From positions 1 through 55,126 of the forward strand of contig DATNBD010000007.1 of assembly GCA_035572155.1 (NCBI GenBank): a stretch of DNA of 55,126 nt, read 5' to 3'. The stretch comes from Rhodoferax sp. Lineage in GTDB: Bacteria; Pseudomonadota; Gammaproteobacteria; Burkholderiales; Burkholderiaceae_C. Positions 11,358 through 51,206 of this stretch are shown piece by piece. A model generated the notes under the pieces. The model was given only the letters and a program-made list of their open reading frames with translations, did not search any database and had not been told where the DNA came from. Position 1 is the stretch's first letter; each line of letters begins with the position of its first letter. A program made the position numbers and the translations under genes.

Positions 11358-11413
11358 TGCTATATGTTATGTAGCTTACTTTCAATAACAGGCAAGGGCT
11401 AAGGTCATTTTTC
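11358..11413 (+). repeat. Dispersed ~55-bp bipartite motif, copy A (intergenic, between convergent genes)
   Basis: TGCTAT-ATGTTAT-GTAGC-TTACTTTCAATAACAGGCAA-GGGCT-AAGGTCAT-TTTT. Confidence 0.75.
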
Positions 11414-12253
11414 TTATAAATCCGTGCGCAGCTTCCAGATTTCTGGGAACAGCACCACATCGAGCATCTTGCGCAGGTAGCTCACGCCGCCGGTGCCGCC
11501 GGTGCCGCGCTTGAAGCCGATGATGCGCTCCACCGTCGTGACGTGGCGGAAGCGCCAGACGCGAAAGGCGTCTTCCAGGTCGGTCAGCTTTTCGCCCAGC
11601 TGGTACAGGTCCCAATACTTGTGCGGGTCGCGGTACACGCGAAGCCAGGCGGCCTCCACGGCTTCGCTGGCGGCGTAAGGCAGGCTCCAGTCGCGCTCCA
11701 GGTGGTCAGTCGGCACCGGTAGGCCCTGGCGGGCCAGCAGGCGCAACGCCTCGTCGTACAGGGAAGGCGCACGGTATGCCGCCTCGACCTTTTCCAGCAG
11801 CTCGGGGCGGTGCGCATGGGGCTTCAGCATGGCGCCGTTCTTGTTGCCGAGCGCGAATTCGATGCAGCGGTATTGCCAGCTCTGGAACCCGCTGGAGCTG
11901 CCCAGGTACGGCCGCATCGCGGTGTATTCGGGGGGCGTCATGGTGGCCAGTACGGTCCAGGCCTGCACCAACTGCTCCATGATGCGCGAGACGCGTGCCA
12001 GCATCTTGAAGGCGCTGGGCAGGTCGCCCGCCACGATGCAGGCCGTGGCCGCGTGCAGTTCGTGCAGCATCAGTTTCATCCACAGTTCGCTGGTTTGGTG
12101 CTGGATGATGAACAGCATCTCGTCATGCGCCGGCGACAGCGGCTGTTGCGCATTCAGGACCTGGTCCAGGTGCAGATAGTCGCTGTAGCTCATGGTTTGG
12201 CTGAAGTCCAGCCGGGCCTTTTCCTCGATCACGATTTGTTCGTTGCTCATCAT
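11414..12253 (-). CDS. kynA: Tryptophan 2,3-dioxygenase
   Basis: ATGA overlap with the kynU stop; [29 protein letters not shown] and [12 protein letters not shown] motifs. Confidence 0.96.
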
Positions 12254-13751: not shown

Positions 13752-16058
<2,307 letters not shown>

Positions 16059-16142
16059 GACGGTCTCCAGTGGTCGGTGGATAAGCAAGACTACTGCAAA
16101 GCCGATCGTCCTTCACACCCTGTTGGTACTTGAAGCGACTTG

Positions 16143-16172
16143 AAATAAAAAGCGCCCCGCGAGAGGGGCGCT
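16143..16172 (-). terminator. Rho-independent terminator downstream of the purine operon
   Basis: 8-bp stem AGCGCCCC/GGGGCGCT (16151-16172) followed on the minus strand by a T-rich tail. Confidence 0.8.
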
Positions 16173-16209
16173 GCTGCCGGTGCATGGTCCGAAGCTCTGA
16201 ATTCAGAAG

Positions 16210-16265
16210 AAATGGATGGCCAAGCCCATATTCAATCTATATTGTTTGCTACTTATTATGTAGTA
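16210..16265 (-). repeat. Dispersed ~55-bp bipartite motif, copy B (intergenic)
   Basis: Minus strand: TACTAC-ATAATAA-GTAGC-AAACAATATAGATTGAATAT-GGGCT-TGGCCATC-CATTT. Confidence 0.7.
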
Positions 16266-16278
16266 ATTGAATGGGCGC

Positions 16279-16499
16279 TCAATGTGCCCCGGCGGTGGCG
16301 GGGCCATGTCCCTTGCTGCCATTGAAGAACAGGTTCAGCAGCACCGCGGTGATCGAGGTCAACAGGATGCCGCTGTGCAGGATCGGGGCAGCAGGGGCGA
16401 CATCTGCTGTGGCCAGTTCAGGGCCACGAGCGGAATCAGGCCGGCGCCGCCGAGCACGAACTGCGGAATGTCGGCGATCACCGCCGCCAGCTTGGCCGC
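16279..16499 (-). pseudogene. Remnant of an NCS2 (xanthine/urate permease) 3' end
   Basis: KLAAVIADIPQFVLGGAGL joined directly to IPLVALNWPQQM, then a frameshift near 16385 into PILHSGILLTSITAVLLNLFFNG...stop. Matches the NCS2 P..VLGG and AVLLNLFFN segments. Confidence 0.75.
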
Positions 16500-16590
16500 T
16501 TCCACCTTCTGCGCCAGGACCCGGCCGGGTGGAGTCTTGAGGCTCGGGCGGCGTACACCCAGGCGCCTGAGCACCCGGGTTGCGCGCCCG

Positions 16591-17829
16591 TCACACGAGC
16601 AGGTCGCGCAGCGAGCGCGCGATCACCTTCGTCGCGCGGCGCAGGTCCTGCAGGTCGATCCGCTCGTCCGCGCGTTTCGCGTGCGATTCCAGCACGGTAC
16701 GCGGGCCGGCGCCGTAGATCACGCCCGGAATGCCGGCCTCGCCATACAGGCGCACATCGGTGTAGAGCGGCGTTCCCATCGCCGGAATGGCCTCGCCGAA
16801 CACCTCGGCGCCGTGCTTCTGGATCGCCTCGACCAGCGGCTTGTTGCCGGGCAGCGGCTTCATCGAGTTGGCCAGCAGAATGCGCCGGATGTCGACCGTG
16901 ATGCCGCCGCCCGGGGTCTTGAACTCTGCCGCGGCCTGGGTGATCACGTCGCGGATCGACGCCTCGACCTCGGCCGGGTTCTCCTCGGGGATCATGCGCC
17001 GGTCCAGCTTGAACACCACCTTGCCGGGGATCACGTTGGTGTTGGTGCCGCCTTCGATCCAGCCCACGTTCAGGTAGGGATGATCGATGCCGACCACGTT
17101 CGACTTCACGCCCCTGTACAGCGTGTTCTGCTGATACAGCGCATTGAGGATGTGCACCGCACCCTGCAGTGCATCGACGCCGGTGGCGGGCACCGCGGCA
17201 TGTGCCATCTTGCCGTGCACGGTGACTTCCATCTGCAGGCAGCCGTTGTGCGCGGTCACCACCTCGTAGCTGAAGCCCGCGGCGATCATCAGGTCGGGCC
17301 GGGTGTGCTTGTGCTTCAAGAGCCAGCCCGGGCCCAGAATGCCGCCGAACTCCTCGTCGTAGGTGAAATGCAGCTCGATGCTGCCCTTGTTCGGCTTGGC
17401 TACGGTCTCGAGCGCGCGCACCGCAAAGGTGAAGGTCGAGAAGTCGCACTTGCTGACCGCCGCCGCGCGGCCGTACAGCTTGCCGCCCTCCACCTCGCCG
17501 CCATAGGGGTCGTGGGTCCAGCCCTCGCCGGGCGGCACCACGTCGCCATGCGCGTTCAGCGCGACCGTGCGGCCGCCGTCGCCGTAGGAGCGACGCACGA
17601 TCAGGTTGGTGATCGACTCCAGACCGTAGTCGTGCACCTCCTGCGCCGGCACCGGGAACTTCTCGGCCTCGAAGCCAAAGCCCTTGAGCAGATCAGCCGT
17701 ACGCTCGGCATGCGGCGCGTTGTTGCCCGGCGGCGTGTCGGTGGGCACGCGCACCAACTCCTGCAGGAAGCGCACCTGCTCGTCGAAATGGCTGTCGATC
17801 CAGGCATCCAGTTGCTTGTAGTCGGTCAT
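16591..17829 (-). CDS. M20 family (ArgE/DapE-like) metallo-amidohydrolase
   Basis: NAHGDVVP, YGRAAAVSKCD, YDEEFGG and ESHAKRADE motifs; ATGA-coupled to the upstream gene. Confidence 0.9.
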   Translation of the reverse strand: MTDYKQLDAWIDSHFDEQVRFLQELVRVPTDTPPGNNAPHAERTADLLKGFGFEAEKFPVPAQEVHDYGLESITNLIVRRSYGDGGRTVALNAHGDVVPPGEGWTHDPYGGEVEGGKLYGRAAAVSKCDFSTFTFAVRALETVAKPNKGSIELHFTYDEEFGGILGPGWLLKHKHTRPDLMIAAGFSYEVVTAHNGCLQMEVTVHGKMAHAAVPATGVDALQGAVHILNALYQQNTLYRGVKSNVVGIDHPYLNVGWIEGGTNTNVIPGKVVFKLDRRMIPEENPAEVEASIRDVITQAAAEFKTPGGGITVDIRRILLANSMKPLPGNKPLVEAIQKHGAEVFGEAIPAMGTPLYTDVRLYGEAGIPGVIYGAGPRTVLESHAKRADERIDLQDLRRATKVIARSLRDLLV

Positions 17830-19604
17830 GTTTTTTCTGCGGCAAGGTTGTCAAGAAGAAGCTGGAACGCCTCGACCGCGAGCTGCATGTCGGCGCTGGT
17901 CGTGCTCTCCAGGGGGTTGTGGCTGATGCCGGCGTTTTCGCCGCGCACGAACAGCATGGCCTGCGGCATTACTTCGTGCAGCTTCATCGCGTCGTGGCCG
18001 GCGCCGCTGGGCATGCGGTGCACCGGCACGCCCAGGGCATCGACGGCGCGCTCCCAACGCTGCTGCCAGGCCGGCGCACTCGGCGCGGCGGCGGCGCGCA
18101 CGGTTTCCTCTAGTTTGTAATGCAGGCCGCGCCGCTCGCAGATGCGCTGGAGTTCGGCGCACACGTCGCTGACGCAGGCATCGCGTATTTCATTCGTGGT
18201 CGCACGGATGTCGAGGCTGAACTTGCAACGCCCGGGCACCACGTTCATCGAACCGTTGGGCACTTCGAGCATGCCCACGGTGGCGACCAGGTGCGGCACA
18301 GCGCCGCCGCGCTTTTCGACGTACAACACCAGTTCCGCCGCCGCCGCGGCCGCATCGCGGCGGCGGTCCATCGGCGTGGTGCCGGCGTGGCTGGCCATTC
18401 CGATGATTTCACAAACGTAGCGCACACTGCCGTTGATGGACGTCACGATACCCAGCGGCAGGTCGATTTCGTTCAGCACCGGCCCCTGCTCGATATGCAC
18501 CTCGACAAAACCGAGGTACCCGGAGGCATCGCGCTTGAGCTTCGGGATGTCGTCGATGCACAGTCCTGCGTGCTCGATGGCCGCGCGCATCGTGATGCCA
18601 TCCGCGTCCTTCTGGTCGAGCCAGCTCATGTCGAATTGACCAGTGAGTGCGCCCGAGCCCAGAAACACGGCCTTGTAGCGCTGGCCTTCCTCCTCGGCGA
18701 AGCCGACCACCTCGAAGCCGAAGGGCAAGCGGCGCTTTGCGCGGCTGAGTTCGCGCACGCAAGCCATCGGAACAAAAATGCCCAGGCGCCCGTCGTATTT
18801 GCCGCCGTTGCGCACCGTGTCGTAATGGCTGCCGGTCAGCAGGCGCTTCGCATTAGGGTCACTGCCGTGGTAGATGCCGACCACGTTGCCGACCGCGTCG
18901 ATCGCCACCTCGTCGAAGCCGCATTCCTCGCGCATCCAGTGCGAGATGCGCTGCGCACAGGCGCGGTGCGCGTCGGTCAGATAGGTCACCGTGAGTTCGC
19001 CGCGCTCGGCGTACCCCGGGTCGCTGTTCGTCGACAGCCGCTCGGCCCAGTCCCAGACCTGGTTGCCCAGTTCCGGCGGCGCGCCGAACTTGTCTTCCAG
19101 GCGGATTTCGGCGATCCGGTGGATGTTGCGGATGCACTCGGCGAGCTCGAAATCCGGATGGTTTTCCAGCCGGCGCTCGAACGCAGAAATGATTTGGGCC
19201 TTGGTGAGGCCGGTCCCGCGCGGGCCCCGCACCGCCAGCACGAACGGAAAGCCGAACTTTACGTTGTACGCGGCGTTGAGTTGCTGAATCTTCGCGAATT
19301 CCTCCGGCGTGCATTCGGCGAGGCCCGCCTTGCTCTGTTCGTTCGTCGATTCGGCGGTCAGCGTCTTCGCGACCATGGCCTTGCCGGCGAGCTCCGGGTG
19401 GGCACGGATCAGCGCGAGCTTCGCGTCGCGGCCGGCCTGCTCGAGTACCCGGGTCATCGCGTGCTTGAGCGAAGCAAGCGAGCGAAAAGGTCGCGCTGCT
19501 AGCGCGCGCTCGGCGATCCAGGGCGAATGCTCGTACAGCCCGTCGAGCATTTTTGCGGCCTCGCCTGGAGGCGCCGCATTGAGTTGTCGCAGCGTGAGGG
19601 TCAT
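17826..19604 (-). CDS. uraD: OHCU decarboxylase fused to allantoate amidohydrolase (Zn hydrolase)
   Basis: N-terminal EHSPW, AHPELAG, EQSKAGL and YNVKFGFPFV; C-terminal GSHYDTV, YDGRLG, EEEG, EVHIEQGP, SHAGTTPM, GAGHDA and GISHNPLE. Confidence 0.93.
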   Translation of the reverse strand: MTLTLRQLNAAPPGEAAKMLDGLYEHSPWIAERALAARPFRSLASLKHAMTRVLEQAGRDAKLALIRAHPELAGKAMVAKTLTAESTNEQSKAGLAECTPEEFAKIQQLNAAYNVKFGFPFVLAVRGPRGTGLTKAQIISAFERRLENHPDFELAECIRNIHRIAEIRLEDKFGAPPELGNQVWDWAERLSTNSDPGYAERGELTVTYLTDAHRACAQRISHWMREECGFDEVAIDAVGNVVGIYHGSDPNAKRLLTGSHYDTVRNGGKYDGRLGIFVPMACVRELSRAKRRLPFGFEVVGFAEEEGQRYKAVFLGSGALTGQFDMSWLDQKDADGITMRAAIEHAGLCIDDIPKLKRDASGYLGFVEVHIEQGPVLNEIDLPLGIVTSINGSVRYVCEIIGMASHAGTTPMDRRRDAAAAAAELVLYVEKRGGAVPHLVATVGMLEVPNGSMNVVPGRCKFSLDIRATTNEIRDACVSDVCAELQRICERRGLHYKLEETVRAAAAPSAPAWQQRWERAVDALGVPVHRMPSGAGHDAMKLHEVMPQAMLFVRGENAGISHNPLESTTSADMQLAVEAFQLLLDNLAAEKT

Positions 19605-19608
19605 GGGT

Positions 19609-20559
19609 TCAACCTTGATAGGGGTGGGTCTGCTTCCAGTGGCGAGCGATGTCGATGCGCCGGCAGACCCAGACGCGGTCGTGCCTCGCGATGTGGTCGA
19701 GAAAGCGCTGCAGCGCCACGATGCGCCCCGGATGGCCGAGCAGGCGGCAATGCATGCCGATGCTCATCATCTTGGGGCGGTCCAGGCCGGCGGGGTCGCC
19801 CTCGGCGTAGAGCGCGTCGAAGCTGTCGCGCATGTACTGGAAGAACGGGTCGGCGTGCGAGTAGCCCTGCGGTAGCGCGAAGCGCATGTCGTTGCAGTCC
19901 AGCGTGTAGGGCACGATCAGCTGCGGCACCACGGTGCCGTCGCTCCTTTTCACCTTCATCCAGAACGGCAGGTCGTCGCCGTAATAGTCGCTGTCGTATT
20001 CGAAGCCGCCGTAGTCGACGACGAGCCGCCGCGTGCGCGGACTGTCGCGTCCCGTGTACCAGCCGAGCGGGCGTTCGCCGGTCAGTTGCTCGATGGCCTG
20101 CATGGCCTGGCGCATGTGCTCGCGCTCGGTCGCCTCGTCGACGCTCTGGTAGTGAATCCAGCGCCAGCCATGGCAGGCGATTTCGTGCCCCAGTGCCTTG
20201 ACCGCTGTCGCGACCTCGGGGTAGCGCTGCAGCGCCTTGCCAACGCCGAACACGGTCAGCGGCAGGCCGCGCTTCTCGAACTCGCGCAGGATGCGCCAGA
20301 CACCCGCGCGCGAGCCATACTCGTAGATGCCCTCCATGCTCATGTGCCGTTCCGGGTAGCTGGCCGGATTGAACATTTCCGACAGGAACTGTTCGGAGCC
20401 GGCGTCGCCGTCGAGCACGCAGTTCTCGCTCCCTTCTTCGTAGTTCAGGACGAATTGCACGGCCACGCGCGCGCCGCCGGGCCAGCGGGCATGCGGCGGA
20501 TTGCGGCCGTAGCCGGTCAGGTCGCGGGGGTAGGGAAGGGTGCAGTCGTAGGTGTTCAT
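19609..20559 (-). CDS. puuE: Allantoinase PuuE (polysaccharide deacetylase family)
   Basis: YPRDLTGYG, VLNYEEG, YEYGSRAGVWR, HGWRW, GWYTGR and SIGMHCR motifs. Confidence 0.95.
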   Translation of the reverse strand: MNTYDCTLPYPRDLTGYGRNPPHARWPGGARVAVQFVLNYEEGSENCVLDGDAGSEQFLSEMFNPASYPERHMSMEGIYEYGSRAGVWRILREFEKRGLPLTVFGVGKALQRYPEVATAVKALGHEIACHGWRWIHYQSVDEATEREHMRQAMQAIEQLTGERPLGWYTGRDSPRTRRLVVDYGGFEYDSDYYGDDLPFWMKVKRSDGTVVPQLIVPYTLDCNDMRFALPQGYSHADPFFQYMRDSFDALYAEGDPAGLDRPKMMSIGMHCRLLGHPGRIVALQRFLDHIARHDRVWVCRRIDIARHWKQTHPYQG

Positions 20560-20573
20560 GATGAATTGGCAGG

Positions 20574-21239
20574 TCAGGACAGGGCCATGGAAATGTCGTT
20601 GGTGGGTACCTTGCGGTCGAAGGTCAGGTTCTCTTCCACATGCCGCAGGTGTTCGGTCATCAGGCGCACGGCGCCTTCTTCGTCGCGCGCCGCCAGCGCC
20701 TTGATGATTTCCACATGTTCTTCATTGGAATGCTGGGCGGCGCTCGCGCTCTGGTACATGAGGGTGATCAGTGCGCAGCGCGCGATCAGCTTGCCCAGGA
20801 TTTGCGCCAGCACCTGGTTGCCGGTGAGCTCGGCCATGCGCACATGAAAATCTCCGAGCAGTTCGGTGCGTCCCGCGACGTCTTCCCGCGTGACGGCCTG
20901 CTTTTCCTGGGCGACATGGTCTTTCAATGTCTTGATCTTGGCCGGCGTCATGGTGTGCACCAGGGCGCGGGTCATCTCGGCTTCGAGCATGCGGCGCACC
21001 GCGAACACCTGCTTCGCCTCCGTGACCGGCGGCGCGGCGACGAATGCGCCGCGCGCCGGTTCCATTCGCACCAGCCGGTTTTGGGCGAGCTGGAACAACG
21101 CCTGGCGCACCAGGGTGCGGGACACGCCGAAGTGGTCCGCCAGCTTCTGCTCGGCGAGTTTGGCGCCCGGCTGCAGCCGATGCTCCACGATGGCACGCGT
21201 CAGAGCTTCCACAATGGAACTGGTAGTCGATGATTGCAT
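20574..21239 (-). CDS. GntR (FadR/FCD) family transcriptional regulator
   Basis: LQPGAKLAEQKLADHFGVSRTLVRQAL helix-turn-helix; FCD domain (FH..., EHVEII). Start may be 21248. Confidence 0.92.
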   Translation of the reverse strand: MQSSTTSSIVEALTRAIVEHRLQPGAKLAEQKLADHFGVSRTLVRQALFQLAQNRLVRMEPARGAFVAAPPVTEAKQVFAVRRMLEAEMTRALVHTMTPAKIKTLKDHVAQEKQAVTREDVAGRTELLGDFHVRMAELTGNQVLAQILGKLIARCALITLMYQSASAAQHSNEEHVEIIKALAARDEEGAVRLMTEHLRHVEENLTFDRKVPTNDISMALS

Positions 21240-21266
21240 GAAGGTCATGATAGCGATATTTTGGAA

Positions 21267-21290
21267 AAGTGTATACACTTCTGTCGACCA
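21267..21290. promoter_or_regulatory. GntR/FadR-type operator between gntR and uraH
   Basis: Perfect 14-bp palindrome AAGTGTATACACTT (21267-21280), followed by a second half-match TGTCGAC. Confidence 0.7.
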
Positions 21291-21333
21291 ATTTTGGCGA
21301 TCTCCCATTCAACCCTGATTGATCGGAATACAC

Positions 21334-21684
21334 ATGGGCCTGAGCACACATGTACTGGATACGATGCACGGCTGCCCCGCAGCGGGCATGGCGGTGGAGT
21401 TCTACAGCACCGGCAGCGGCACGGCCACCCTGCTGCGCAGCATGCTTCTTAACAACGATGGGCGCACGGACGGTCCGCTGTTCGACGATGGCAGCCTGCG
21501 CCAGGGCACCTACCGCCTGGTGTTCGATGTCGCGGGGTACTTCAAGGCGCGCGGCGTGAAGTTGCCCGAGCCCAATTTTCTGGACAAGGTCAGCCTCGAC
21601 TTCGGGGTGGCCCAGACCGATCAGCACTATCACGTGCCGCTGCTGGTCAGCCCCTGGAGCTATTCGACCTATCGCGGCTCGTGA
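21334..21684 (+). CDS. uraH: 5-hydroxyisourate hydrolase
   Basis: LSTHVLD, DGRTD, HYHVPLL and C-terminal YRGS signature. Confidence 0.97.
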   Translation: MGLSTHVLDTMHGCPAAGMAVEFYSTGSGTATLLRSMLLNNDGRTDGPLFDDGSLRQGTYRLVFDVAGYFKARGVKLPEPNFLDKVSLDFGVAQTDQHYHVPLLVSPWSYSTYRGS

Positions 21685-21701
21685 GGCACGGCGGCCAACG
21701 G

Positions 21702-22187
21702 CTATTCGGGTTCCTCGCTCAGTTGCCCTTCGGTCAGGGTGTCCAGTTGGAACCGGCCGCTTTTGTCCCACAACCAGACATCGGTGTAGGTGACCTTGCC
21801 AAGCCGCAGCGGAACGGGAAACGGCGCTGCCCGCCGCACCGTGCGCTCGATTTCGGTCACGACCTCGGGCGCCTGGGTGGGCGCGCGCATCCAGCGCATC
21901 CCCAGCACTTGGCCGCGGCCACCGATGTCGACCTGCAACACGCCGATGGCATACAACAGGGGCGGCATCTTGCCTTGGTAGATTCTGTTGGCGTTCAGTG
22001 CGTACAGGTGACGTGCCGCATCCAGCCGGTAGGCGCGTGCGGTGGTCGCTCTGGACGGGGGTGGCGTGCGCGGCGCGCCGGGCGCAGCCGAGGGGGCCTG
22101 TTTAGGCGCCCGTTCCGGTGCGCTTTTGCAGCCGGCGATGAAGGCCGCGGCGGCGCCGGCGCCGGCCAGCAGCAGGCGCCGGTTCAT
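21702..22187 (-). CDS. Hypothetical lipoprotein (possible Tat lipoprotein, TonB-C-like domain)
   Basis: MNRRLLL signal with lipobox IAGC, a Pro/Ala linker, then RRAAPFP...DVWLWDKSGRFQLDTLTEGQ. Confidence 0.7.
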   Translation of the reverse strand: MNRRLLLAGAGAAAAFIAGCKSAPERAPKQAPSAAPGAPRTPPPSRATTARAYRLDAARHLYALNANRIYQGKMPPLLYAIGVLQVDIGGRGQVLGMRWMRAPTQAPEVVTEIERTVRRAAPFPVPLRLGKVTYTDVWLWDKSGRFQLDTLTEGQLSEEPE

Positions 22188-22348
22188 TGTGGGTGTTTGG
22201 GGCGTCGTGTCAGACCAGGCAGCGGGCAGGTGATGCATGTCGGCGATGGGCGCGAGTTGATGGCCGGAGCCTTGAAGAGCGTGGAGCATACTGTGCCCGA
22301 ATTCGGCCCGTGCGCATGCCGCAGGCTTGTGCCAAGAGGTATCGATTT

Positions 22349-23149
22349 GTGACTTCAGCAGAACTATTCCTGACCCGGCTCGCCAGCGAGCGCGCCGTGC
22401 TGGTCAGCGTGGCGTCCACCAAGGGTTCCGCCCCGCGCGAGCGCGGGGCCTGGATGGGGGTGTTCGCGCACGATGTGATCGGCACCATTGGCGGCGGCCA
22501 CCTGGAGTTTCAGGCGCTGGATGCCGCGCGCGCGCGGCTCGGCGGCGCGGCGGGTGACGAGCTATTGCGTTTCGCGTTGGGGCCCAGCCTGGGCCAATGC
22601 TGCGGCGGCGTGGTGCATTTGCAGTTGGAGCCGGTATCGATGGCCGACGTGCCGGCACTGCGTAAGCGCCTGACGCCGCAGCTGACACCGGTGGCGCTGT
22701 TTGGCGGCGGACACGTGGGCGCCGCGCTGGCTCGCGTCATCGCCACCCTGCCGTTCGCGCTCACCTGGATCGACAGCCGGGACGGCATCTTTCCGGACGA
22801 GGTTCCGGCAGACATCACCTGCGAATACTCCGATCCGGTGCAGTCGGCGGTGCGGGACCTGGCGCCGAACTCGCGCGTGCTCATCATGAGTTTCAGCCAT
22901 GCCGAAGACTTGGACATCGTGGCCGCCTGCCTGCAGCGCCAGCGCGCGCGGGGCGATCTGCCCTACATCGGACTGATCGGCAGCAAGACCAAATGGGCCA
23001 CTTTCCGGCACCGCCTCGAGGCGCGCGGTTACAGCGCCGGTGAACTGGCGCAAATCACCTGCCCGATCGGTGTGCCCGGCATCGCCGGCAAGGAGCCGGA
23101 GGTGATTGCCGTGGCGGTCGCCGCGCAGCTGCTGCAACTGATGATCTAG
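22349..23149 (+). CDS. xdhC: Xanthine dehydrogenase accessory protein
   Basis: GAGGT then GTG; GSAPRE, GTIGGGHLE, LGQCCGG, FGGGHVG, GLIGSKTK, CPIG and KEPEVIA motifs. Confidence 0.93.
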   Translation: MTSAELFLTRLASERAVLVSVASTKGSAPRERGAWMGVFAHDVIGTIGGGHLEFQALDAARARLGGAAGDELLRFALGPSLGQCCGGVVHLQLEPVSMADVPALRKRLTPQLTPVALFGGGHVGAALARVIATLPFALTWIDSRDGIFPDEVPADITCEYSDPVQSAVRDLAPNSRVLIMSFSHAEDLDIVAACLQRQRARGDLPYIGLIGSKTKWATFRHRLEARGYSAGELAQITCPIGVPGIAGKEPEVIAVAVAAQLLQLMI

Positions 23150-23196
23150 GGTTTATACCTACAAAACGTGAATGCCAGGGGCTGGCTTGCCCTGGT

Positions 23197-23345: not shown

Positions 23346-24563
23346 ATGGAAAGCTACCTTCTCGACTGGGCCAACCTGCTGCTGCGCTGGGCCCATGTCA
23401 TCACCGCCATTGCCTGGGTCGGTTCCTCGTTCTACTTCGTTTTCCTGGACAGCAACCTGACGCCGCCGATCGACGAGGACCTTCAGCGCCAGGGTGTTAC
23501 GGGTGAGCTCTGGGCGCTGCATGGCGGCGGTTTCTATCACCCGGTCAAGTTCAACGTCTCGCCGCCCAGGCTGCCGGATCACCTGCACTGGTTCTACTGG
23601 GAAAGCTATGCGACCTGGCTCACGGGGTTTTCCCTGTTGGCCGTGTCCTATCTCTGGAACGCGGGCATCTTCCTGGTTGACAAATCGGTCATGGATTTGA
23701 CGCCTGCGCTCGCCGTGATCGCGGCGCTGGCGTTCCTGGTGGTGTTCTGGCTCTTGTACGACGGCATTTGCCGCCTATTCGGCCAGCGCAACAACGGCGA
23801 CGCCATCGTCGGCGCGCTCGTGTTGTTGCTGGTGTGCGTGGCGTCCTGGCTGGCCTGCCACATGTTTGCGGGGCGCGCGGCCTTCCTGTTGATAGGCGCC
23901 ATGCTGGCGACTTCCATGTCCGCCAACGTGTTTTTCTGGATCATCCCGGGCCAGCGCAAGGTCGTCGCGGCCATCAAGGCCGGCGAACCGGTGGATCCGA
24001 TTCACGGCAAGCGGGGCAAGCAGCGCAGCGTGCACAACACCTACTTCACGCTGCCGGTTGTATTCGCCATGCTGTCCAATCACTACAGTTTCGCGTACGG
24101 CGACACGCACAACTGGATCGTTCTGATTCTCATGATGTTTGCCGGCGCCGCGATTCGCCAGTTCTTCGTGATGCGCCACGGCTTCAAGCTGGGCCGCAAT
24201 GGCAACCCGCTGCCCTATGCGCTGGTGGGCGTGCTGGTGATCGCGGGTGTGATTCTCTGGATCCAGCCGAAGGCTACTAATCCAGTAGCTGTAAATGCAG
24301 CTACGGCAGAGGCTACAGCCGAAGTTTCCTTTGAACAAGTGCAAAAGATCGTGGCGCAGCGCTGCTCCATGTGCCACGGAACTACTGTACAGATGAAAGG
24401 TATTCAGTTCACCTCTCCCGCGTTGATCAAGGAGCACGCGCAGGACATGTACCAGCAGGTCGTGGTGAACCGGGTCATGCCCATGAACAACGCCACGGGC
24501 ATGACCGATCAGGAGCGCGATGAGTTTGCGCGCTGGTTCAAGGCCGGTGCGAAAACCCAGTAG
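23346..24563 (+). CDS. puuD: Membrane urate oxidase with C-terminal cytochrome c
   Basis: LLRWAHVITAIAWVGSSFYF, HGGGFY, HWFYWESY, RSVHNTY and SNHY motifs; CxxCH (CSMCH) and MPMNNATGMT. Confidence 0.93.
   Translation: MESYLLDWANLLLRWAHVITAIAWVGSSFYFVFLDSNLTPPIDEDLQRQGVTGELWALHGGGFYHPVKFNVSPPRLPDHLHWFYWESYATWLTGFSLLAVSYLWNAGIFLVDKSVMDLTPALAVIAALAFLVVFWLLYDGICRLFGQRNNGDAIVGALVLLLVCVASWLACHMFAGRAAFLLIGAMLATSMSANVFFWIIPGQRKVVAAIKAGEPVDPIHGKRGKQRSVHNTYFTLPVVFAMLSNHYSFAYGDTHNWIVLILMMFAGAAIRQFFVMRHGFKLGRNGNPLPYALVGVLVIAGVILWIQPKATNPVAVNAATAEATAEVSFEQVQKIVAQRCSMCHGTTVQMKGIQFTSPALIKEHAQDMYQQVVVNRVMPMNNATGMTDQERDEFARWFKAGAKTQ
24272..24327 (+). repeat. Dispersed ~55-bp bipartite motif, copy C (inside puuD, interdomain linker)
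   Basis: GGCTAC-TAATCCA-GTAGC-TGTAAATGCAGCTACGGCAG-AGGCT-ACAGCCGA-AGTTT; encodes ATNPVAVNAATAEATAEVS. Confidence 0.75.
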
Positions 24564-25908: not shown

Positions 25909-25944
25909 CGCATGCCTCTAAAAACAATCCGGATCGTCATGTGC

Positions 25945-33155: not shown

Positions 33156-34937
33156 TCAGCTCAAAAACTGCAGTGCGGCAAGCTTGGCGTAGGTGCCGCC
33201 CAGCGCCACCAGTGTCTCGTGCGTGCCCTGTTCCACGATGCGGCCGTGGTCCATCACCACGATGCGGCCGGCCTGCTGCACGGTGGCCAGGCGGTGCGCA
33301 ATGACCAGCGTGGTGCGGCCTTGCATGGCCGACTCCAGCGCAGCCTGCACCATGCGCTCACTCTCGGCGTCCAGCGCGCTGGTGGCCTCGTCCAGCAGCA
33401 GCAGCGGCGGGTTCTTGAGCATGGCGCGCGCGATCGCGATGCGCTGGCGCTGGCCACCCGAGAGGCGCACGCCGCGCTCGCCCAGGAAGGTGTCGTAGCC
33501 CTCGGGCAGCGCCGTGATGAATTCGTGCGCAAAGGCGGCCAGCGCGGCGGCCCGTACCTGCTCGTCGCTGGCGTCGGGCTTGCCGTAGCGGATGTTCTCC
33601 AGCGCGCTGGTCGAGAAGATCACGGCATCCTGCGGCACGATGCCGATGCGCTGACGCAGGTCGTGCAGCGTCATCTCGCGCGTGGCCACGCCATCGAGCC
33701 GGATTGTGCCCGTGCCGGGGTCGTAGTAACGCAGCAGCAGCTGGAACACCGTGCTCTTGCCGGCGCCGCTGGGACCCACCAGCGCCACGGTTTCGCCGGG
33801 CGCCACGCTCAGGTTGAAGTCGGTCAGGGCCGCCTGCGTCGGGCGCGAGGGATAGTGAAATGTGATTTCTTCCAGATTAATAGCACTACCGATAGTTGTA
33901 GCGGGGACTGTCGCCGCTTTTGAGGGTGAAAAAATCGGCGAGCGAGATTCCAGCAATTCCATCAACCGCTCGGTCGCGCCGGCCGCGCGCAGCAAGTCGC
34001 CGTAGACCTCGCCGAGCACTGCGAACGCACTCGCCAGGATGATCACGTACAGCACCGTCTCACCCAGATGGCCGGCCGACATCTGCCCCGCCATCACCGC
34101 CTGCGTGCCCTGGTACAGCCCCCATAGCAGCGCAGCACTGGTGGCAATGATGATGAAGGCGACCAGCACCGAGCGCGCCTTCGAACGGTGCACCGCGGTC
34201 AGGAAGGCATTCTGGGTGGATGCGCCAAAGCGCGCCGCCTCGCGCCCTTCGGCGGTGTAGCTTTGCACCACGGGAATCGCGTTGAGCACTTCGGCGGCGA
34301 TCGCGCTGGCGTCGGCGATGCGGTCCTGGCTGGCGCGCGAGAGCCGGCGCACGCGCCGGCCAAACCAGAGGCTGGGCAGCACGATCAGCACCAGGATCAC
34401 GAGCACCGTGAACATCACATACGGATTGGTCCAGATCAGGATGGCCAACGCGCCCACGCCCATCACGGTGTTGCGCAACCCCATGCTCAGCGACGAGCCC
34501 ACAACCGTTTGCACCAGCGTGGTGTCGCCCGTCAGGCGCGAGAGCACCTCGCCGGTCTGGGTGGTTTCGAAAAACTCCGGGCTCTGGCGCAGCACATGAG
34601 CATAGACCGCGTTGCGGATGTCGGCAGTGACGCGCTCGCCGAGCCAGCTGACCATGTAGAAGCGTCCCGCCGAAAACAGCCCCAGCGCCACGGCTACGGC
34701 GAACAGCGCGAAGAAGTGCTCGCGCAGCGCCATCACCTGAGCTCCCTTGTCTGCCTTGATAAGGCCGCCGTCGATCAGGCCGCGCAGCGCCAGCGGAAAG
34801 AGCAGTGTGGCCGTCGCCGCCAGAACCAGGAACAGCAGCGCCAGCGCGATCCGGCCGCGGTAGGGCCGCAGAAACGGCAGCAGGCCGGACAGGGAGCGCG
34901 GAGAGCCCTTGCGGGCGTCGGTGGGGGAAGTAGCCAT
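33156..34937 (-). CDS. ABC exporter, fused permease/ATPase (MsbA-like)
   Basis: 6 predicted TM segments; GPSGAGKST, LSGGQRQR, LLLDEATSALD and IAHR motifs. Confidence 0.95.
   Translation of the reverse strand: MATSPTDARKGSPRSLSGLLPFLRPYRGRIALALLFLVLAATATLLFPLALRGLIDGGLIKADKGAQVMALREHFFALFAVAVALGLFSAGRFYMVSWLGERVTADIRNAVYAHVLRQSPEFFETTQTGEVLSRLTGDTTLVQTVVGSSLSMGLRNTVMGVGALAILIWTNPYVMFTVLVILVLIVLPSLWFGRRVRRLSRASQDRIADASAIAAEVLNAIPVVQSYTAEGREAARFGASTQNAFLTAVHRSKARSVLVAFIIIATSAALLWGLYQGTQAVMAGQMSAGHLGETVLYVIILASAFAVLGEVYGDLLRAAGATERLMELLESRSPIFSPSKAATVPATTIGSAINLEEITFHYPSRPTQAALTDFNLSVAPGETVALVGPSGAGKSTVFQLLLRYYDPGTGTIRLDGVATREMTLHDLRQRIGIVPQDAVIFSTSALENIRYGKPDASDEQVRAAALAAFAHEFITALPEGYDTFLGERGVRLSGGQRQRIAIARAMLKNPPLLLLDEATSALDAESERMVQAALESAMQGRTTLVIAHRLATVQQAGRIVVMDHGRIVEQGTHETLVALGGTYAKLAALQFLS
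33867..33922 (+). repeat. Dispersed ~55-bp bipartite motif, copy D (inside ABC exporter, TMD-NBD junction; degenerate left arm)
   Basis: TTCTTC-CAGATTA-ATAGC-ACTACCGATAGTTGTAGCGG-GGACT-GTCGCCGC-TTTTG. Confidence 0.55.
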
Positions 34938-35563: not shown

Positions 35564-37037
35564 ATCCCTGCGCCCGCTCAAGCTGGGCGCTCTCGTACTA
35601 GCGCTGGGCCTCGGCGCTTGCGCCGACATGTCCGGAGTTGCGCCGGCACAATCGAAAATGCGCGATCCGGCCTCGCTCGGCCTGGCCGCCGACACCGCGC
35701 AGGCGCCCGCCGTGTCCGCCGATTGGTGGCGCGAGTTCGGCGATGCAGAGCTTGATCGGCTGATTGCACAGGCGCTGACCAGCAGCCCGAGCCTGGGGCT
35801 GGCCCAAGCCCGGCTGGCCCGCGCCCAAGCCATGGCCGGCATGGCCAAGGCTGCGACGCTGCCGCAAGTCGGCGGTGAACTCGAACTGAACCGGCAGAAG
35901 TTCCCGGGCAACTTCATCTACCCGCCGCCCTTGGGTGGCAGCGTCAACAACATCGGCACCGCGCAGTTGAACGCCAGTTGGGAACTCGATTTCTTCGGCA
36001 AGAATCGCGCCGCGCTGGACGCCGCGATCGGCTCGGCCAGGGCGGCCGAGGCCGACGCCCAAGCCGCGCGCGTGCTGCTGGCCACCCAGGTGGCACGCAG
36101 TTATTTCCAGTTGGCGCGCTTGAACGACCAGCTTACCGTGGCGCAGCGCACGCTGGCCCAGCGCCAGGAAACACTGGACATCGTGCGTGATCGTTTCAGC
36201 GCTGGGCTCGACACCAAGCTGGAGTTGCGCGAGAGCGAAGGCAGCCTGCCGGATGCGCGTCAGCAGATCGAGGCGCTGCGCGAGCAGATCGTGTTGACGC
36301 GGAATGCGCTGGGCGCGCTGGTTGGAGAGCCAAATGCGGCTCAAACCGTTGCCCTGCCATCGCTTGAAGTTATTAAAAAAGTAGCAATGAGCCAGACGAT
36401 ACCGGCCGACCTGTTGGGCCGCCGTGCCGACATTGCCGCCGCCCGCTGGCGCGTGGAAGCCTCCTTGCGCGACGTGGACAGTGCCAAGGCCCGGTTTTAT
36501 CCGAACATCAACCTGGCCGCGTTTGCTGGCTTCAACAGCCTTGGGTTCGGCAAGCTGTTCCAAAGTGGCAGCGAGCAGTGGAATGTCGGCCCCGCGCTGA
36601 CGCTGCCGATCTTCGAGGGAGGCCGCTTGCGCGCCAACCTGCGCGGTAAAACCGCCGATGAAGATGCCGCGGTGGAGAGTTACAACGCCGCGGTGATCAA
36701 CGCGGTGCGCGACGTGGCGGACGATGTCGCTTCATCAAAGTCCATCGTTGTGCAGCGAGGCGAGCAGCATGCCGCGCAGGCCGCCGCGGAAAGCGCTTAC
36801 CAGATTGCCCTGGAGCGCTACAAGGCAGGCTTGGGTAACTACCTGAACGTACTGACCGCCGAAACCAGTGTGCTCAAGCAGCGCCGCCTTGCGGTGGACC
36901 TGGACGCGCGCGCGCTGGACACCCAGGTGGCACTGATCGGCGCGCTGGGCGGCGGCTATCAGGCGCCCGCCCAGGCCCGCGCAAGCAGCGCCACGGCCGC
37001 GGGCGCCGTGGCATTCGCGGGTAACGAAAAAAAGTAA
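35535..37037 (+). CDS. Efflux outer-membrane lipoprotein (NodT/OMF)
   Basis: Lipobox LGAC; WWREFGD, SWELDFFG, LLGRRADI, LPIFEGG and ALGGG motifs. Confidence 0.94.
   Translation: MKNNKARRTESLRPLKLGALVLALGLGACADMSGVAPAQSKMRDPASLGLAADTAQAPAVSADWWREFGDAELDRLIAQALTSSPSLGLAQARLARAQAMAGMAKAATLPQVGGELELNRQKFPGNFIYPPPLGGSVNNIGTAQLNASWELDFFGKNRAALDAAIGSARAAEADAQAARVLLATQVARSYFQLARLNDQLTVAQRTLAQRQETLDIVRDRFSAGLDTKLELRESEGSLPDARQQIEALREQIVLTRNALGALVGEPNAAQTVALPSLEVIKKVAMSQTIPADLLGRRADIAAARWRVEASLRDVDSAKARFYPNINLAAFAGFNSLGFGKLFQSGSEQWNVGPALTLPIFEGGRLRANLRGKTADEDAAVESYNAAVINAVRDVADDVASSKSIVVQRGEQHAAQAAAESAYQIALERYKAGLGNYLNVLTAETSVLKQRRLAVDLDARALDTQVALIGALGGGYQAPAQARASSATAAGAVAFAGNEKK
36330..36386 (-). repeat. 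Dispersed ~55-bp bipartite motif, copy E (inside OMF gene)
   Basis: Minus strand: TGCTAC-TTTTTTA-ATAAC-TTCAAGCGATGGCAGGGCAA-CGGTT-TGAGCCGC-ATTTG. Confidence 0.65.
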
Positions 37038-48549: not shown

Positions 48550-48560
48550 GCAGCCGCCCG

Positions 48561-51206
48561 CTACCAGTCGTCCTTCACCGCCAGCACCGCATCGCGGCCG
48601 GCGGCGGCACGCCCCGCCAGCCAGGCCGTGGCCGTGCCGGCCAGAACGACCGCCGCGCACAGCGTGAGCAGGCGCAGCCACGGCACCTGCAGGTCCATGG
48701 TCCAGTGAAAGCTTTGCGGATTTACCACGCGCACCAGCACCACCGAAACGGCCAGGCCCAGCGCGAGCCCGGCGATGGCGCCGATCACCGTCCAGGCCGC
48801 GCCTTCGCCGGCCACCACCGCCAGAATCTGCCGGCGCGTGAGTCCCAGGTGCGCGAGCAGACCGAACTCGCGCCGGCGCGCCAGCACCTGGGCGCCGAAG
48901 GACGCCGCCACGCCAAACAGCCCGATCGCGATCGCCACGGCCTGCAGCCACCAGGTCACGGCAAAGCTGCGGTCGAAGATTCGCAGCGAGCTCGCCCGAA
49001 TCTGGCCGGCCGAGGCGAAGTCGATCAGCGCGCCCGCGCCGGACTGCTGCTCGGCCACGTCGCGGATGGCCTGCTGCAGGCGCGCCGGGTCGGTGCCGGG
49101 CTGCAGCCACAGGGCCAGGTCGTTCACACGCGCATCGCCCGTGAGCCGCTCGAAGTCGCGCCGGTCCAGCGCGATCGCGCCAAACTGGCGTGCATAGTCG
49201 CGCCACACGCCTGCTACAAAGAACGTAGCTGACTTTGTTTTGTCATCAAGGGATACAGCGCCAAAAGATGCTGATAGCGGAGCGAATACGGCGCCGGGCC
49301 GCGCACGGTACAGGTCCACCACCGCCTCGCTGACGTAAATCGCCACGTCGCCGGGCGGCACCGGCAGCGCGGGCGCCAGCAGCGGCAGGTTGTGCGCCCC
49401 CTCGTCGATGTCGCGTGCGATCAGCGTCACGGCCGGTTCGCGGGGTGCCAGTTGCAAGCGGCTGCTGCGCAGCGCGCTCACGCGCCGCACGCCGGGCAGG
49501 CGCATTACCGCCTGCACGAACTGCGGCGGAAGGTAGACCGCATCGTCACCACTGCCGGCCGTGGCGCTGCGCACATACAGGTCGGCCGGCAGCACCACGT
49601 CCAGCCATTGCATGACCGAGCCGCGAAAGCTCCCCACCATCACCGTCAGCGCGACGGCCAAGCTGAGCGCCGCGACCACGCCGCTGATGGCCACCGCGGC
49701 GCTCTCGCGCACGCGGCGTGCGCGCTCGACCGCCAGGAGCGGAAGCAGGCGGTGCGCCACCCGCGGAGCGAGCCGGTCGTACAGCAGCGCCACCAGCCAG
49801 GGCAGGGCGGTGATGCCGCCCACCAGCAGCAGCGCGACGGACAGGTAGGCCGCCAATGGAATGCCAAATACGGGTGGAGCCCATGCCAGCAGGGTACCAA
49901 TAGCTATCAAAATGATACTCAGCCAATGCGTGCGCGTGCCGCCCGGTACCGCGCTCAGGCCCTTCAGGGTTTGCGCCGGCGGCAGTTTCTGCGCGGCCCG
50001 GGCCGGCCACCAGGCGCCAGCCAGCGCGGCCAGCACACCGAGCGCGCCATAGGTCAGAGCGGCGGCGCCGCCCCACTGCAAGGCGGGCGCCTCGCCCACA
50101 AAATAGCCGCCGCCCAGATCGCCGCCCAGCAGGTGCAACGCGAGCGCGGCCAGGCCGGTGCCGAGCGCGATGCCGGCGCTGCTGCCCAGCAGCCCGAGCA
50201 CACCGGATTCGATCAATACCAGCCGCAGGCGCTCGCGTCCGGTGAGCCCGAGCACGCTCAGCAAGGCGAACTGCTGGGCGCGCTTGGCCACGCTGAGCGA
50301 CAGCACCGAATACACCAGAAACGCGCCGGTGAAAAGGGCCACCAGCGCCAGCACCGTCAGGTTCACGCGGTAGGCGCGCGAGAGCACATCCGTGCGCTGG
50401 CCGGCATCGCTAGGTGCGCTGGCGCTGACGCCTGGGGGCAGTTGCAGCGCACGCAGGAACGCCGCACGATCCGCGCCGGCGCGCAGCCGCACGTCGATGC
50501 GCGTGAGCCGGCCGAGCTGGCCGAACAGTTCCTGAGCGGCCGCGATGTCCATCACCGCCAGCGGCGCGCCACCGGCGCTCACCGTGCCCGCGACGCGCAC
50601 CGTGTGCAGCGCCAGCCCGCTTTGCAGTTGCAGCGAGGCCGTGGACTTGCCCGAGGCTGTTTCCAGCGCACGGCGCGCCGCCGGATTCAAAAACACCGTG
50701 GCCGGCGCCAGCACCGACAGCCGGTCCGCGCCGGCCCGCGGCATCGGCAGCAAGGCCGGCGCCACCGACGCGACCACGAGCGCATCGATGCCCAGCACGC
50801 GCAGCGGCACGCGTGTACCGTCCGTAGTAATGTCGCCCCCACGCACGCCCACTGCGTATGGCTCGCTGCCCCCCGAGGGGGCCCTCGCGCCTTCGGGCGG
50901 TCGGGCGGCGCTCAGCGCGTAGGTCGCCAGTTCCAGCACCGGGCTGGCCACGGCCACCTGCGGCAGATGCGCGACACGCGCGAACAGTGTGTCGTCGAAG
51001 CTGCCCTGGGCCGCATGCAGCGTCAGGTCGGGCTGGCCGTCCACCGAGCGCACGGCGCTGGAGAATTCGCCCAGCGCCGAGGCGTTGATGAGCTGGACCG
51101 AGAACGCCAGCGCCACGCCCAGCATCACCGCCACCACGGCCGCGGCGTTGCGCCAGGGGTGGTGTCGTAATTCCTGCCAGGAGAAAGTGCAAAGCAGGGC
51201 GCGCAT
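48561..51206 (-). CDS. FtsX/MacB-like ABC permease (AttF/G-like)
   Basis: Two TM clusters with R..(Q/E)F.LL..LG motifs; MDIAAAQ, SFRGSV..WLD and VNPQSFHW motifs. Confidence 0.9.
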   Translation of the reverse strand: MRALLCTFSWQELRHHPWRNAAAVVAVMLGVALAFSVQLINASALGEFSSAVRSVDGQPDLTLHAAQGSFDDTLFARVAHLPQVAVASPVLELATYALSAARPPEGARAPSGGSEPYAVGVRGGDITTDGTRVPLRVLGIDALVVASVAPALLPMPRAGADRLSVLAPATVFLNPAARRALETASGKSTASLQLQSGLALHTVRVAGTVSAGGAPLAVMDIAAAQELFGQLGRLTRIDVRLRAGADRAAFLRALQLPPGVSASAPSDAGQRTDVLSRAYRVNLTVLALVALFTGAFLVYSVLSLSVAKRAQQFALLSVLGLTGRERLRLVLIESGVLGLLGSSAGIALGTGLAALALHLLGGDLGGGYFVGEAPALQWGGAAALTYGALGVLAALAGAWWPARAAQKLPPAQTLKGLSAVPGGTRTHWLSIILIAIGTLLAWAPPVFGIPLAAYLSVALLLVGGITALPWLVALLYDRLAPRVAHRLLPLLAVERARRVRESAAVAISGVVAALSLAVALTVMVGSFRGSVMQWLDVVLPADLYVRSATAGSGDDAVYLPPQFVQAVMRLPGVRRVSALRSSRLQLAPREPAVTLIARDIDEGAHNLPLLAPALPVPPGDVAIYVSEAVVDLYRARPGAVFAPLSASFGAVSLDDKTKSATFFVAGVWRDYARQFGAIALDRRDFERLTGDARVNDLALWLQPGTDPARLQQAIRDVAEQQSGAGALIDFASAGQIRASSLRIFDRSFAVTWWLQAVAIAIGLFGVAASFGAQVLARRREFGLLAHLGLTRRQILAVVAGEGAAWTVIGAIAGLALGLAVSVVLVRVVNPQSFHWTMDLQVPWLRLLTLCAAVVLAGTATAWLAGRAAAGRDAVLAVKDDW
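49212..49267 (+). repeat. Dispersed ~55-bp bipartite motif, copy F (inside ABC permease)
   Basis: TGCTAC-AAAGAAC-GTAGC-TGACTTTGTTTTGTCATCAA-GGGAT-ACAGCGCC-AAAAG. Confidence 0.75.
49864..49920 (-). repeat. Dispersed ~55-bp bipartite motif, copy G (inside a predicted TM helix of the ABC permease)
   Basis: Minus strand: GAGTAT-CATTTTG-ATAGC-TATTGGTACCCTGCTGGCAT-GGGCT-CCACCCGT-ATTTG; encodes SIILIAIGTLLAWAPPVFG. Confidence 0.7.
50828..50915 (-). mobile_element. REP/RPE-like GC-rich palindromic element, apparently inserted in frame in the ABC permease
   Basis: CTGAGCGCCGCCCGACCGCCCGAAG...GCCCCC-TCG-GGGGGC...GGGGGCGACATTA; encodes SAARPPEGARAPSGGSEPYAVGVRGGDI. Shares its 5' end with the 43910-43978 element. 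Confidence 0.6.

What the first reader, a model, noticed from the sequence alone, without database searches (positions are those of the whole stretch)
11358..49920. Fixed-architecture ~55-bp chromosomal motif repeated 7 times, in both orientations, mostly inside genes
Seen: seven relatively AT-rich patches in GC-rich DNA align without gaps (11358+, 16265-, 24272+, 33867+, 36386-, 49212+, 49920-). The pattern is GCTAY-N7-RTAGC, then exactly 20 nt, then a GGGCT-like pentamer (GGGCT, GGGCT, AGGCT, GGACT, CGGTT, GGGAT, GGGCT), then about 8 nt, then an A/T tract. Spacers diverge in sequence but not in length. Density is about one per 8 kb; two copies sit at gene 3' ends, five in CDS, none in obvious promoters. 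Inference: constant spacing with degenerate sequence fits a multi-part protein footprint (a palindrome for a dimer plus an asymmetric, directional arm) better than a decaying transposon. Candidate roles are a genome-wide nucleoid or chromosome-organisation site, a DNA-uptake-like signal, or a recombinase site. I recall similar sequences in Comamonadaceae genomes but know no name or cognate protein. This is my best candidate for an undescribed system.
Basis: partly seen in the sequence, partly recalled or inferred. Interest (0 to 1): 0.85.

Follow-up and report, generated by a model that had tools for sequence, protein, structure and literature searches.

The report
Three-palindrome self-DNA tag of Comamonadaceae
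A 64-base DNA motif with fixed spacing occurs about 360 times in this bacterium, is written over protein-coding genes, changes its spelling genome-wide between genera and has been lost in several lineages, so it is likely a protein-read "self" tag that would favour uptake and recombination of DNA from kin.

Summary
Confirmed and larger than reported. All 7 window copies are recovered; the genome holds 362 sites (1 in a reversed-sequence control), about one per 6.8 kb, evenly spaced, in both orientations. A closed chromosome of a relative shows no replichore polarity. The motif is about 64 bp with three dyads (centres 9, 32, ~58), 35-46 bits against 14 needed, and no pairing covariation. 166 of 362 lie inside genes, mostly overlaying codons (51 of 90 without length change; GC3 0.41 vs 0.85). 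Sites are shared across Polaromonas, Rhodoferax and Acidovorax, switch dialect genome-wide (GGGCT vs GCGCT, 1:354), and have decayed in nested lineages (Polaromonas CF318). Best reading (0.45): an uptake-signal-like tag spread by biased DNA transfer; the related Verminephrobacter takes up DNA selectively with no known signal. Close rival (0.33): a site for a chromosome-organising protein. No partner protein was found: RAYT, ComEC, pilins, T2SS and HslV do not track it, and one genome lacking comEC keeps many sites. Ten literature searches found no description; this scan noted it before on other Comamonadaceae DNA.

The parts
11359..11422 (+). Motif copy, 58 bits; fills the gap between the FAD monooxygenase stop (14 bp before) and the convergent kynA 3' end (9 bp overlap). 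A site lies at the same place in Polaromonas, Rhodoferax, Acidovorax and two 'Ramlibacter' MAG loci.
16201..16264 (-). Motif copy, 58 bits; intergenic, 326 bp after the M20 peptidase stop and 142 bp before the malic enzyme start
24273..24336 (+). Motif copy, 42 bits; inside the urate-oxidase-family gene, just after the Pfam domain, read in the sense frame
33868..33931 (+). Motif copy, 29 bits; inside an ABC transporter gene, antisense. Kept in Polaromonas C04 (31) and Rhodoferax (32); same length but decayed (-34) in Polaromonas CF318.
36322..36385 (-). Motif copy, 45 bits; inside the outer-membrane efflux protein gene, antisense
49213..49276 (+). Motif copy, 40 bits; inside the FtsX-like permease gene, antisense. 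Present at or near this position in 4 of 5 orthologous loci (25-55 bits); the fifth reading frame ended at this point.
49856..49919 (-). Motif copy, 34 bits; inside the FtsX-like permease gene, sense frame, over a predicted membrane segment. Orthologs score 31, 23, 19, 12 and -38.

Best explanation
The motif is a 64-bp, three-dyad double-stranded DNA signal kept at fixed places across core Comamonadaceae, and it likely acts as a 'self' tag that an unidentified protein complex reads so that tagged fragments are preferentially taken up or recombined into the chromosome. Shown: copy number, fixed geometry, even spacing, no polarity, overlay on codons, shared positions across genera, genome-wide dialects, repeated loss, scarcity in foreign DNA. 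Inferred: a trans-acting reader exists (all copies change or decay together); it reads the duplex by half-sites and DNA shape.
For: Excess information: 35-38 bits on a uniform background and 46 on the genome background, against 13.7 needed. Even spacing: 5 gaps under 500 bp vs 25 expected, 54 vs 84 under 2 kb. No polarity or regional bias in a closed chromosome (26 sites, KS p 0.50; best polarity 16 of 26, reached by 909 of 1000 shuffles). 137 of 166 in-gene sites use two of six frames and lie in poorly conserved stretches (42% vs 75% identity). Scarce in foreign DNA: 8.9 per 100 kb in the lowest-GC contigs vs 19.2 in the highest; 0 in 120 kb of three named phages (17.7 expected) and 0 in 50 kb of a Polaromonas plasmid (7.4 expected). 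These traits match those given for USS/DUS in PMC2817400. Dialects: GCGCT:GGGCT is 354:1 and 372:1 in two Acidovorax, 9:307 in Polaromonas P2-4. At least four nested losses. PMC4212676 reports pilus-dependent, selective uptake in Verminephrobacter eiseniae (1500-fold salmon DNA cut transformation only about 10-fold) and transformability of Acidovorax temperans; A. temperans DSM 7270 has 279 exact sites. comEC is found in 53 of 56 and 51 of 52 genomes.
Against: No receptor found: pilins share at most 49% identity among motif-rich genomes and none is specific to them (partial sets). G073 (100% complete, 40 contigs) has no comEC match yet holds 120 GGGCT-type sites in 3.8 Mb. The low density in comEC-broken genomes is weak (p 0.14 for three near-complete ones, 0.03 with two MAGs). 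Three of four nested-loss genomes keep comEC, and G222 keeps pilT, pilQ and comEA. Known uptake signals are short and non-palindromic, pair up as terminators and favour preferred codons; this one is 64 bp, dyad-symmetric, unpaired and forces rare codons (GC3 0.41 vs 0.83 expected). Dyad symmetry suits a cytoplasmic homodimer. I could not check V. eiseniae for the motif, and the hosts of the three phages were not checked.
Confidence: 0.45

Rival explanations
1. The motif is the high-affinity site of a cytoplasmic, multimeric nucleoid protein (three dimers, or a LysR-like tetramer plus a bending protein) that wraps about 65 bp every 5-7 kb and structures the chromosome, for example as topological barriers; each site is kept by ordinary selection.
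For: Three dyads read independently. The two most conserved bases form T-N11-A, the LysR-type box format (recalled). Flexible YR steps are avoided at three places (15 vs 55, 15 vs 32, 6 vs 56) and the A-tract can lie on either strand; A-tract phasing index 6.7 vs 4.4. Even spacing. Persistence without comEC in G073.
Against: Known chromosome-organising sites (matS, parS, SBS, NBS, KOPS, Ter; recalled) are short and regionally or directionally biased; this is not. Repeated loss in large free-living genomes. Nearly half the sites sit in genes at a codon cost although most intergenic gaps are free. No preference for convergent over tandem gaps (about 5-fold each). No DNA-binding gene tracked it in the part of G222 examined.
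Confidence: 0.33
2. The motif is an old REP- or MITE-like element once spread by a transposase (RAYT type) and now domesticated or decaying.
For: Non-coding copies abut stop codons. Gaps are longer where the site is present (76-96 bp vs 13-38 bp at FAD-kynA). The acnA linker is longer in carriers. 39 of 90 in-gene sites differ in length from G222. Near-consensus copies lie at phage gene junctions.
Against: No subfamilies, no hairpin covariation, no terminal inverted repeats. 51 of 90 in-gene sites have no length change. Orthologous old sites switched dialect in place (acnA, FtsX-like). The single-copy Y1_Tnp gene is in 40 of 44 genomes, motif-rich and motif-poor alike, and only 1 of 9 such loci has a copy on both sides.
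Confidence: 0.08
3. The motif is a site-specific recombination or integration site (7-bp spacers as in tyrosine recombinase cores) used to capture genes.
For: Two dyads have 7-bp spacers. Direct copies flank inserts at the FAD-kynA locus in 3 loci. Six same-strand copies lie between accessory genes in a Rhodoferax antarcticus record, and three in a Mu-like phage.
Against: Close pairs are not biased to direct orientation (26 direct vs 28 inverted under 2 kb). Sites are not enriched at synteny breaks (odds ratio 0.82-0.99). The R. antarcticus array also fits tandem accretion of duplicated gene 3' ends. Spacers are diverse, and sites persist in core enzymes.
Confidence: 0.06
4. The motif is an ordinary transcription-factor operator of a very large regulon.
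For: T-N11-A dyad; some copies lie upstream of starts, including two LysR genes.
Against: Divergent gaps, where promoters lie, are not enriched (10 vs 8 expected) while convergent and tandem gaps are about 5-fold enriched; no fixed distance or orientation to starts; far more information than an operator needs.
Confidence: 0.04

Closest known systems
Uptake signal sequences: USS of Pasteurellaceae and DUS of Neisseriaceae (PMC2817400, PMC3458573)
   Same: Hundreds of copies, both orientations, under-represented in but written into genes, preferred frames, poorly conserved positions, scarce in foreign genes, A/T tracts at fixed distances; lineage dialects (DUS dialects recalled; the paper was seen only in a reference list)
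   Different: 64 bp with three dyads vs a non-palindromic 9-12 bp core; no inverted terminator pairs; forces rare codons and amino-acid change; no uptake test and no receptor
Chromosome-organising sites matS/MatP, parS/ParB, SBS/SlmA, NBS/Noc, KOPS/FtsK (recalled)
   Same: Dyad sites read by dimers, often inside genes, not regulatory
   Different: Four times longer, hundreds rather than tens, no ori/ter bias or polarity, frequently lost
REP/BIME with RAYT; Rickettsia palindromic elements; MITEs (recalled; PMC3733652 searched by terms)
   Same: Dispersed, near 3' ends, sometimes in frame in variable loops
   Different: No hairpin covariation, no subfamilies, mostly length-neutral in genes, no tracking transposase; the paper's main text names none of six Comamonadaceae-related taxa searched
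LysR-type operators and the nod box (recalled)
   Same: T-N11-A dyad, a second weaker dyad about two turns away, 50-65 bp footprint
   Different: Not tied to promoters; second dyad is not T-N11-A; 362 copies

Membership tests
DUS/USS uptake signals | Enhances DNA uptake by competent cells | not testable with these tools
   Needs an assay; selective uptake is reported for V. eiseniae without a signal
DUS/USS uptake signals | Hundreds of copies, both orientations, no replichore polarity, even spacing | tested here: met
DUS/USS uptake signals | Overlaid on genes in preferred frames at variable positions | tested here: met
DUS/USS uptake signals | Scarce in foreign DNA | tested here: met
   three phages and part of one plasmid, hosts not checked
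DUS/USS uptake signals | Short non-palindromic core; inverted pairs forming terminators | tested here: not met
   Three dyads over 64 bp; smallest gap 343 bp in this genome
DUS/USS uptake signals | Depends on competence genes and a specific receptor | tested here: inconclusive
   comEC nearly universal; absent in G073, which keeps sites; no tracking pilin
matS/parS/SBS/KOPS-type sites | Regional bias or polarity along the ori-ter axis | tested here: not met
matS/parS/SBS/KOPS-type sites | Cognate protein co-occurring with the site | tested here: inconclusive
   Only 2.71 of 3.55 Mb of one motif-poor genome compared; no candidate
REP/RAYT | Hairpin with compensatory changes | tested here: not met
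   Complementary pairs at expectation in all three dyads
REP/RAYT | RAYT gene co-occurring and flanked by the repeat | tested here: not met
MITE / RPE | Full-length insertion relative to orthologs; young subfamilies | tested here: not met
   51 of 90 without length change; no subfamilies; some linker and intergenic length gain
Tyrosine-recombinase att/attC sites | Direct arrays around cassettes; located at breakpoints | tested here: not met
   local exceptions
LysR-type operator | T-N11-A dyad | tested here: met
   T3 95%, A15 98%
LysR-type operator | Located at regulated promoters | tested here: not met
Rfam RNA families | Match at gathering score | tested here: not met
   0 matches in the window

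The most novel reading that the evidence does not exclude
A third, independently evolved self-DNA recognition system in bacteria: a 64-bp three-palindrome tag with genus-level dialects, read by an unknown symmetric receptor, that gates gene flow in Comamonadaceae, explains the selective uptake seen in Verminephrobacter, and has rewritten hundreds of proteins per genome.
Probability: 0.4. Interest if true: 0.9.

Novelty: new variant of a known kind. Interest (0 to 1): 0.76.

Why it matters
Genome-wide uptake signals are known from only two families, Pasteurellaceae and Neisseriaceae (as stated in the papers read; completeness of that list is recalled). A third system in abundant freshwater, soil and wastewater bacteria would make self-DNA preference and molecular drive directly testable, with natural controls: dialect pairs and sister genomes that lost the motif. 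It would supply a candidate for the unexplained selective uptake of V. eiseniae and could improve transformation of these bacteria. If it is a chromosome-organising site instead, it is a new kind: long, unpolarised and present every 5-7 kb. Either way it is a strong DNA-level constraint on about 7% of this organism's proteins (166 sites in 2406 called genes) that distorts codon and loop evolution.

Tried and rejected
Partner candidates that do not track the motif: Y1_Tnp/RAYT-like gene (40 of 44 genomes); ComEC; DprA (5 of 5); HslV (33 of 50; missing in rich and poor Polaromonas alike); the conserved T2SS GspG (146 of 161 and 35 of 50); type IV pilins (30 of 65 hits came as loci). Subtraction against G222 (2.71 of 3.55 Mb read): 106 cleanly missing genes plus 161 edge cases, none convincing; 12 were run through Pfam; genus-level differences dominate. 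No replacement dyad motif in G222 (9 sites even with position 39 masked). Hairpin or RNA structure rejected. Cassette or att-site idea raised by L439 and L214, rejected genome-wide. A recalled dif pattern found nothing in 5 genomes and had no control, so it is uninformative. BLAST of one copy against plasmids and phages gave 4 weak hits. My first aconitase display picked the wrong column and was redone. About half of the 120 viral pattern hits score low and are likely chance. No structure or complex prediction was run because no candidate reader was found.
Full report
Observation. The exact palindrome GCTAY-N7-RTAGC occurs 3 times in the window against 0.09 expected. In the 2.46-Mb, 88%-complete genome it occurs 83 times at spacer 7, against 0-5 at the other 20 spacers. 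An iterated profile converges on 355 sites and finds 362 at 20 bits or more, 1 in the reversed genome, and only 43 between 10 and 20 bits. The profile was trained on this genome, so the independent controls are the reversed sequence and the relative G222, with 7 sites in 2.71 Mb. The window's aconitase is 96% identical to that of Polaromonas sp. C04, family Comamonadaceae. Gene positions come from my own simple caller and Pfam.

Anatomy. The motif is about 64 bp. Dyad 1 is RCTAY-N7-RTAGC (centre 9), with T3 and A15 the most conserved bases. Dyad 2 spans 22-42 (centre 32); it is degenerate here (right arm AAGGGCT) but often perfect in Acidovorax, AGCGCTT-N7-AAGCGCT. Dyad 3 is WTTT-N6-AAAW (centre about 58). 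The right arm lies at the same distance in 141 of 142 cases; a shifted-arm scan gave 40, 21 and 12 hits at -1, +1 and +3 against 309 at 0, which I did not resolve. No dyad shows pairing covariation. Flexible YR steps are avoided at three positions, and the tract at 52-54 can be TTT (199) or AAA (40). I infer recognition of the duplex by half-sites and shape. Information is 46 bits on the genome background and 35-38 on a uniform one, against 13.7 needed. Copies are as unlike each other as random draws from the profile.

Placement. 166 of 362 sites are inside genes (297 expected), 137 of them in two of six frames. Convergent and tandem gaps are about 5-fold enriched, divergent gaps not (10 vs 8). 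Gaps under 500 bp number 5 against 25 expected, with a minimum of 343; neighbours show no orientation rule. In the closed chromosome of Polaromonas P2-4, 26 strict sites are uniform and unpolarised; two other single-contig genomes look the same by eye. Density rises with contig GC from 8.9 to 19.2 per 100 kb. Three named phages of Rhodoferax, Curvibacter and Acidovorax (120 kb) and 50 of 360 kb of a Polaromonas plasmid hold none; their hosts were not checked. Some uncultured phages and proviruses, found by the pattern itself, carry near-consensus copies at gene junctions.

Overlay and age. Of 166 in-gene sites, 90 could be aligned to G222 orthologs; 51 have no length change, against 772 of at most 900 control windows. 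Amino-acid identity is 42% against 75%. GC3 inside sites is 0.41 against 0.85 in the flanks and 0.83 expected from the amino acids (partly circular, since sites were chosen by DNA score). Sites are old: window copies 11359, 33868, 49213 and 49856 recur in other genera. An acnA linker site is shared by 19 loci of four groups and is lost elsewhere by in-frame deletion or GC decay. Some length gain does go with the motif: in that linker, and in the FAD-kynA gap (76-96 bp with the site, 13-38 bp in three genomes without).

Distribution, loss and dialects. Of 161 family genomes, 51 have 24 or more exact matches, 4 have 10-23 and 106 have 9 or fewer. The 16 genomes of other families sampled have 0-17 of the looser palindrome. 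Among 50 named records, most Polaromonas, Acidovorax and Rhodoferax are rich (up to 529), while Variovorax, Hydrogenophaga, Pseudorhodoferax, Caenimonas, most Ramlibacter, Rubrivivax and Caldimonas have 0-15. Losses are nested: CF318 has 23 in 5.0 Mb, yet on a quick single-gene tree it groups (support 99) with two loci holding 3 and 2 strong sites; L245, L254 and L222 are further cases. Prompted by earlier notes of this scan, I tested dialects. Position 39 is G in 347 of 359 sites here and C in 34 of 34 Acidovorax sites. Genome-wide, GCGCT:GGGCT is 354:1, 372:1 and 204:4 in three Acidovorax and 9:307 in P2-4; G041 is mixed (62:61); five rich genomes (G167, G051, G094, G148, G170) have few of either, which points to further dialects. 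Concerted change and concerted decay at old, unlinked positions imply a trans-acting reader.

None was found. A RAYT-like gene, ComEC, DprA, HslV, a T2SS pseudopilin and type IV pilins do not track the motif. Subtraction against 76% of G222 gave no convincing DNA-binding candidate; the rest of G222 was not read, and the pair is too distant. comEC is absent in G073 and split in G014 and G158, all with low exact-palindrome density (p 0.14; 0.03 if two MAGs are added). Against that, G073 holds 120 GGGCT-type sites in 3.8 Mb, so it is not visibly decayed.

Recombination idea. Direct copies flank inserts in three FAD-kynA loci, and six same-strand copies lie in an island of R. antarcticus. That island also holds repeated gene 3' ends (Fic by annotation; glnS by my recall of the sequence), as in tandem accretion. 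Genome-wide there is no direct-pair bias and no link to synteny breaks, so I reject it as the general function.

Mechanism. I commit, at 0.45, to a self-DNA tag amplified by biased transfer. The genomic behaviour matches what PMC2817400 (abstract and passages) and PMC3458573 (passages) describe for USS/DUS. PMC4212676 (abstract, passages, section 21) reports pilus-dependent selective uptake in V. eiseniae and transformation of A. temperans ATCC 49665; the passages I read name no signal sequence. A. temperans DSM 7270 has 279 exact sites (that the two numbers are the same type strain is recalled). Uptake itself is untested, and V. eiseniae could not be scanned. The dyad symmetry, the length, the codon cost and G073 keep a cytoplasmic chromosome-organising protein close behind (0.33). 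A cytoplasmic factor that favours recombination of tagged incoming DNA would join the two readings. The motif works like an uptake signal in its evolution, but it is not a member of the DUS or USS families by structure.

Novelty. Ten library searches (listings only, except the four papers named) found no description. PMC3733652 names none of six relevant taxa in its main text, and Rfam has no match. I read no supplements; repeat catalogues such as those of PMC3733652 or PMC12306157 (listing only) may list it there, and subscription papers were not searched. Statements on matS, parS, SBS, NBS, KOPS, REP/RAYT, RPE, LysR boxes and DUS dialects are recalled. This scan noted the same motif in nine earlier reports on other genomes; these are not independent support.

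Noticed in passing
window 50829-50915: A second, unrelated GC-rich hairpin repeat of about 85 bp lies in frame inside the FtsX-like gene; 24 BLAST hits in this genome and 44 in the read part of G222, dozens in five relatives, some in tandem 87 bp apart. REP-like; it does not track the main motif and was not found beside 9 RAYT-like genes.
   Followed up: partly
L439 (NZ_CP019241.1) 13800-31911: A record labelled plasmid that looks chromosomal, with an island of toxin-antitoxin, Fic and nuclease genes, three repeated 3' ends that I read as glnS (recall), a duplicated Fic 3' end and six same-strand motif copies.
   Followed up: partly
L194, L195, L196, L214, L227: gap between the FAD monooxygenase and kynA: Other non-coding repeats (a roughly 500-bp element with AAAGAAAG-type arms and shorter REP-like pieces) sit at this gap, in two cases between two motif copies.
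   Followed up: partly
L182 7400-8340; L155 10001-10370; L121, L145, L167, L172, L174: Phage copies score up to 70 bits and lie at gene junctions; in a Mu-like phage three direct copies each contain the start of a small ORF.
   Followed up: partly
G000:C117:1430-1756 and orthologs: A single-copy Y1_Tnp (RAYT-like) gene is conserved across the family (40 of 44 genomes have a match), including Rubrivivax: possibly domesticated.
   Followed up: no
G000:C46:7186-9087: hslV is not found in the seven Polaromonas sensu stricto genomes searched besides the C04 group, rich or poor in the motif.
   Followed up: no
G000:C40, C61, C64: Three different minor type IV pilin clusters in one small genome.
   Followed up: no
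G015, G014, G167, G094, G068: A recalled canonical dif pattern is not found with 2 mismatches, although this genome has XerC- and XerD-like genes; no control was run.
   Followed up: no
G158:C1:3227819-3248429; G219:C15:397546-405285; G014:C1:1836740-1837544: comEC is split by about 20 kb and 7 kb in two genomes and lies in three frames in a third.
   Followed up: no
G000 contig ends (C133/C198, C195/C60, C219/C241): Three contig overlaps of 141 bp cover a motif copy, and sites are mildly enriched 100-300 bp from contig ends (25 vs 15): possibly strain variation at sites.
   Followed up: no
window 31020: An AT-rich stretch at the start of the LysR gene scores 10 bits; not counted as a copy.
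   Followed up: no
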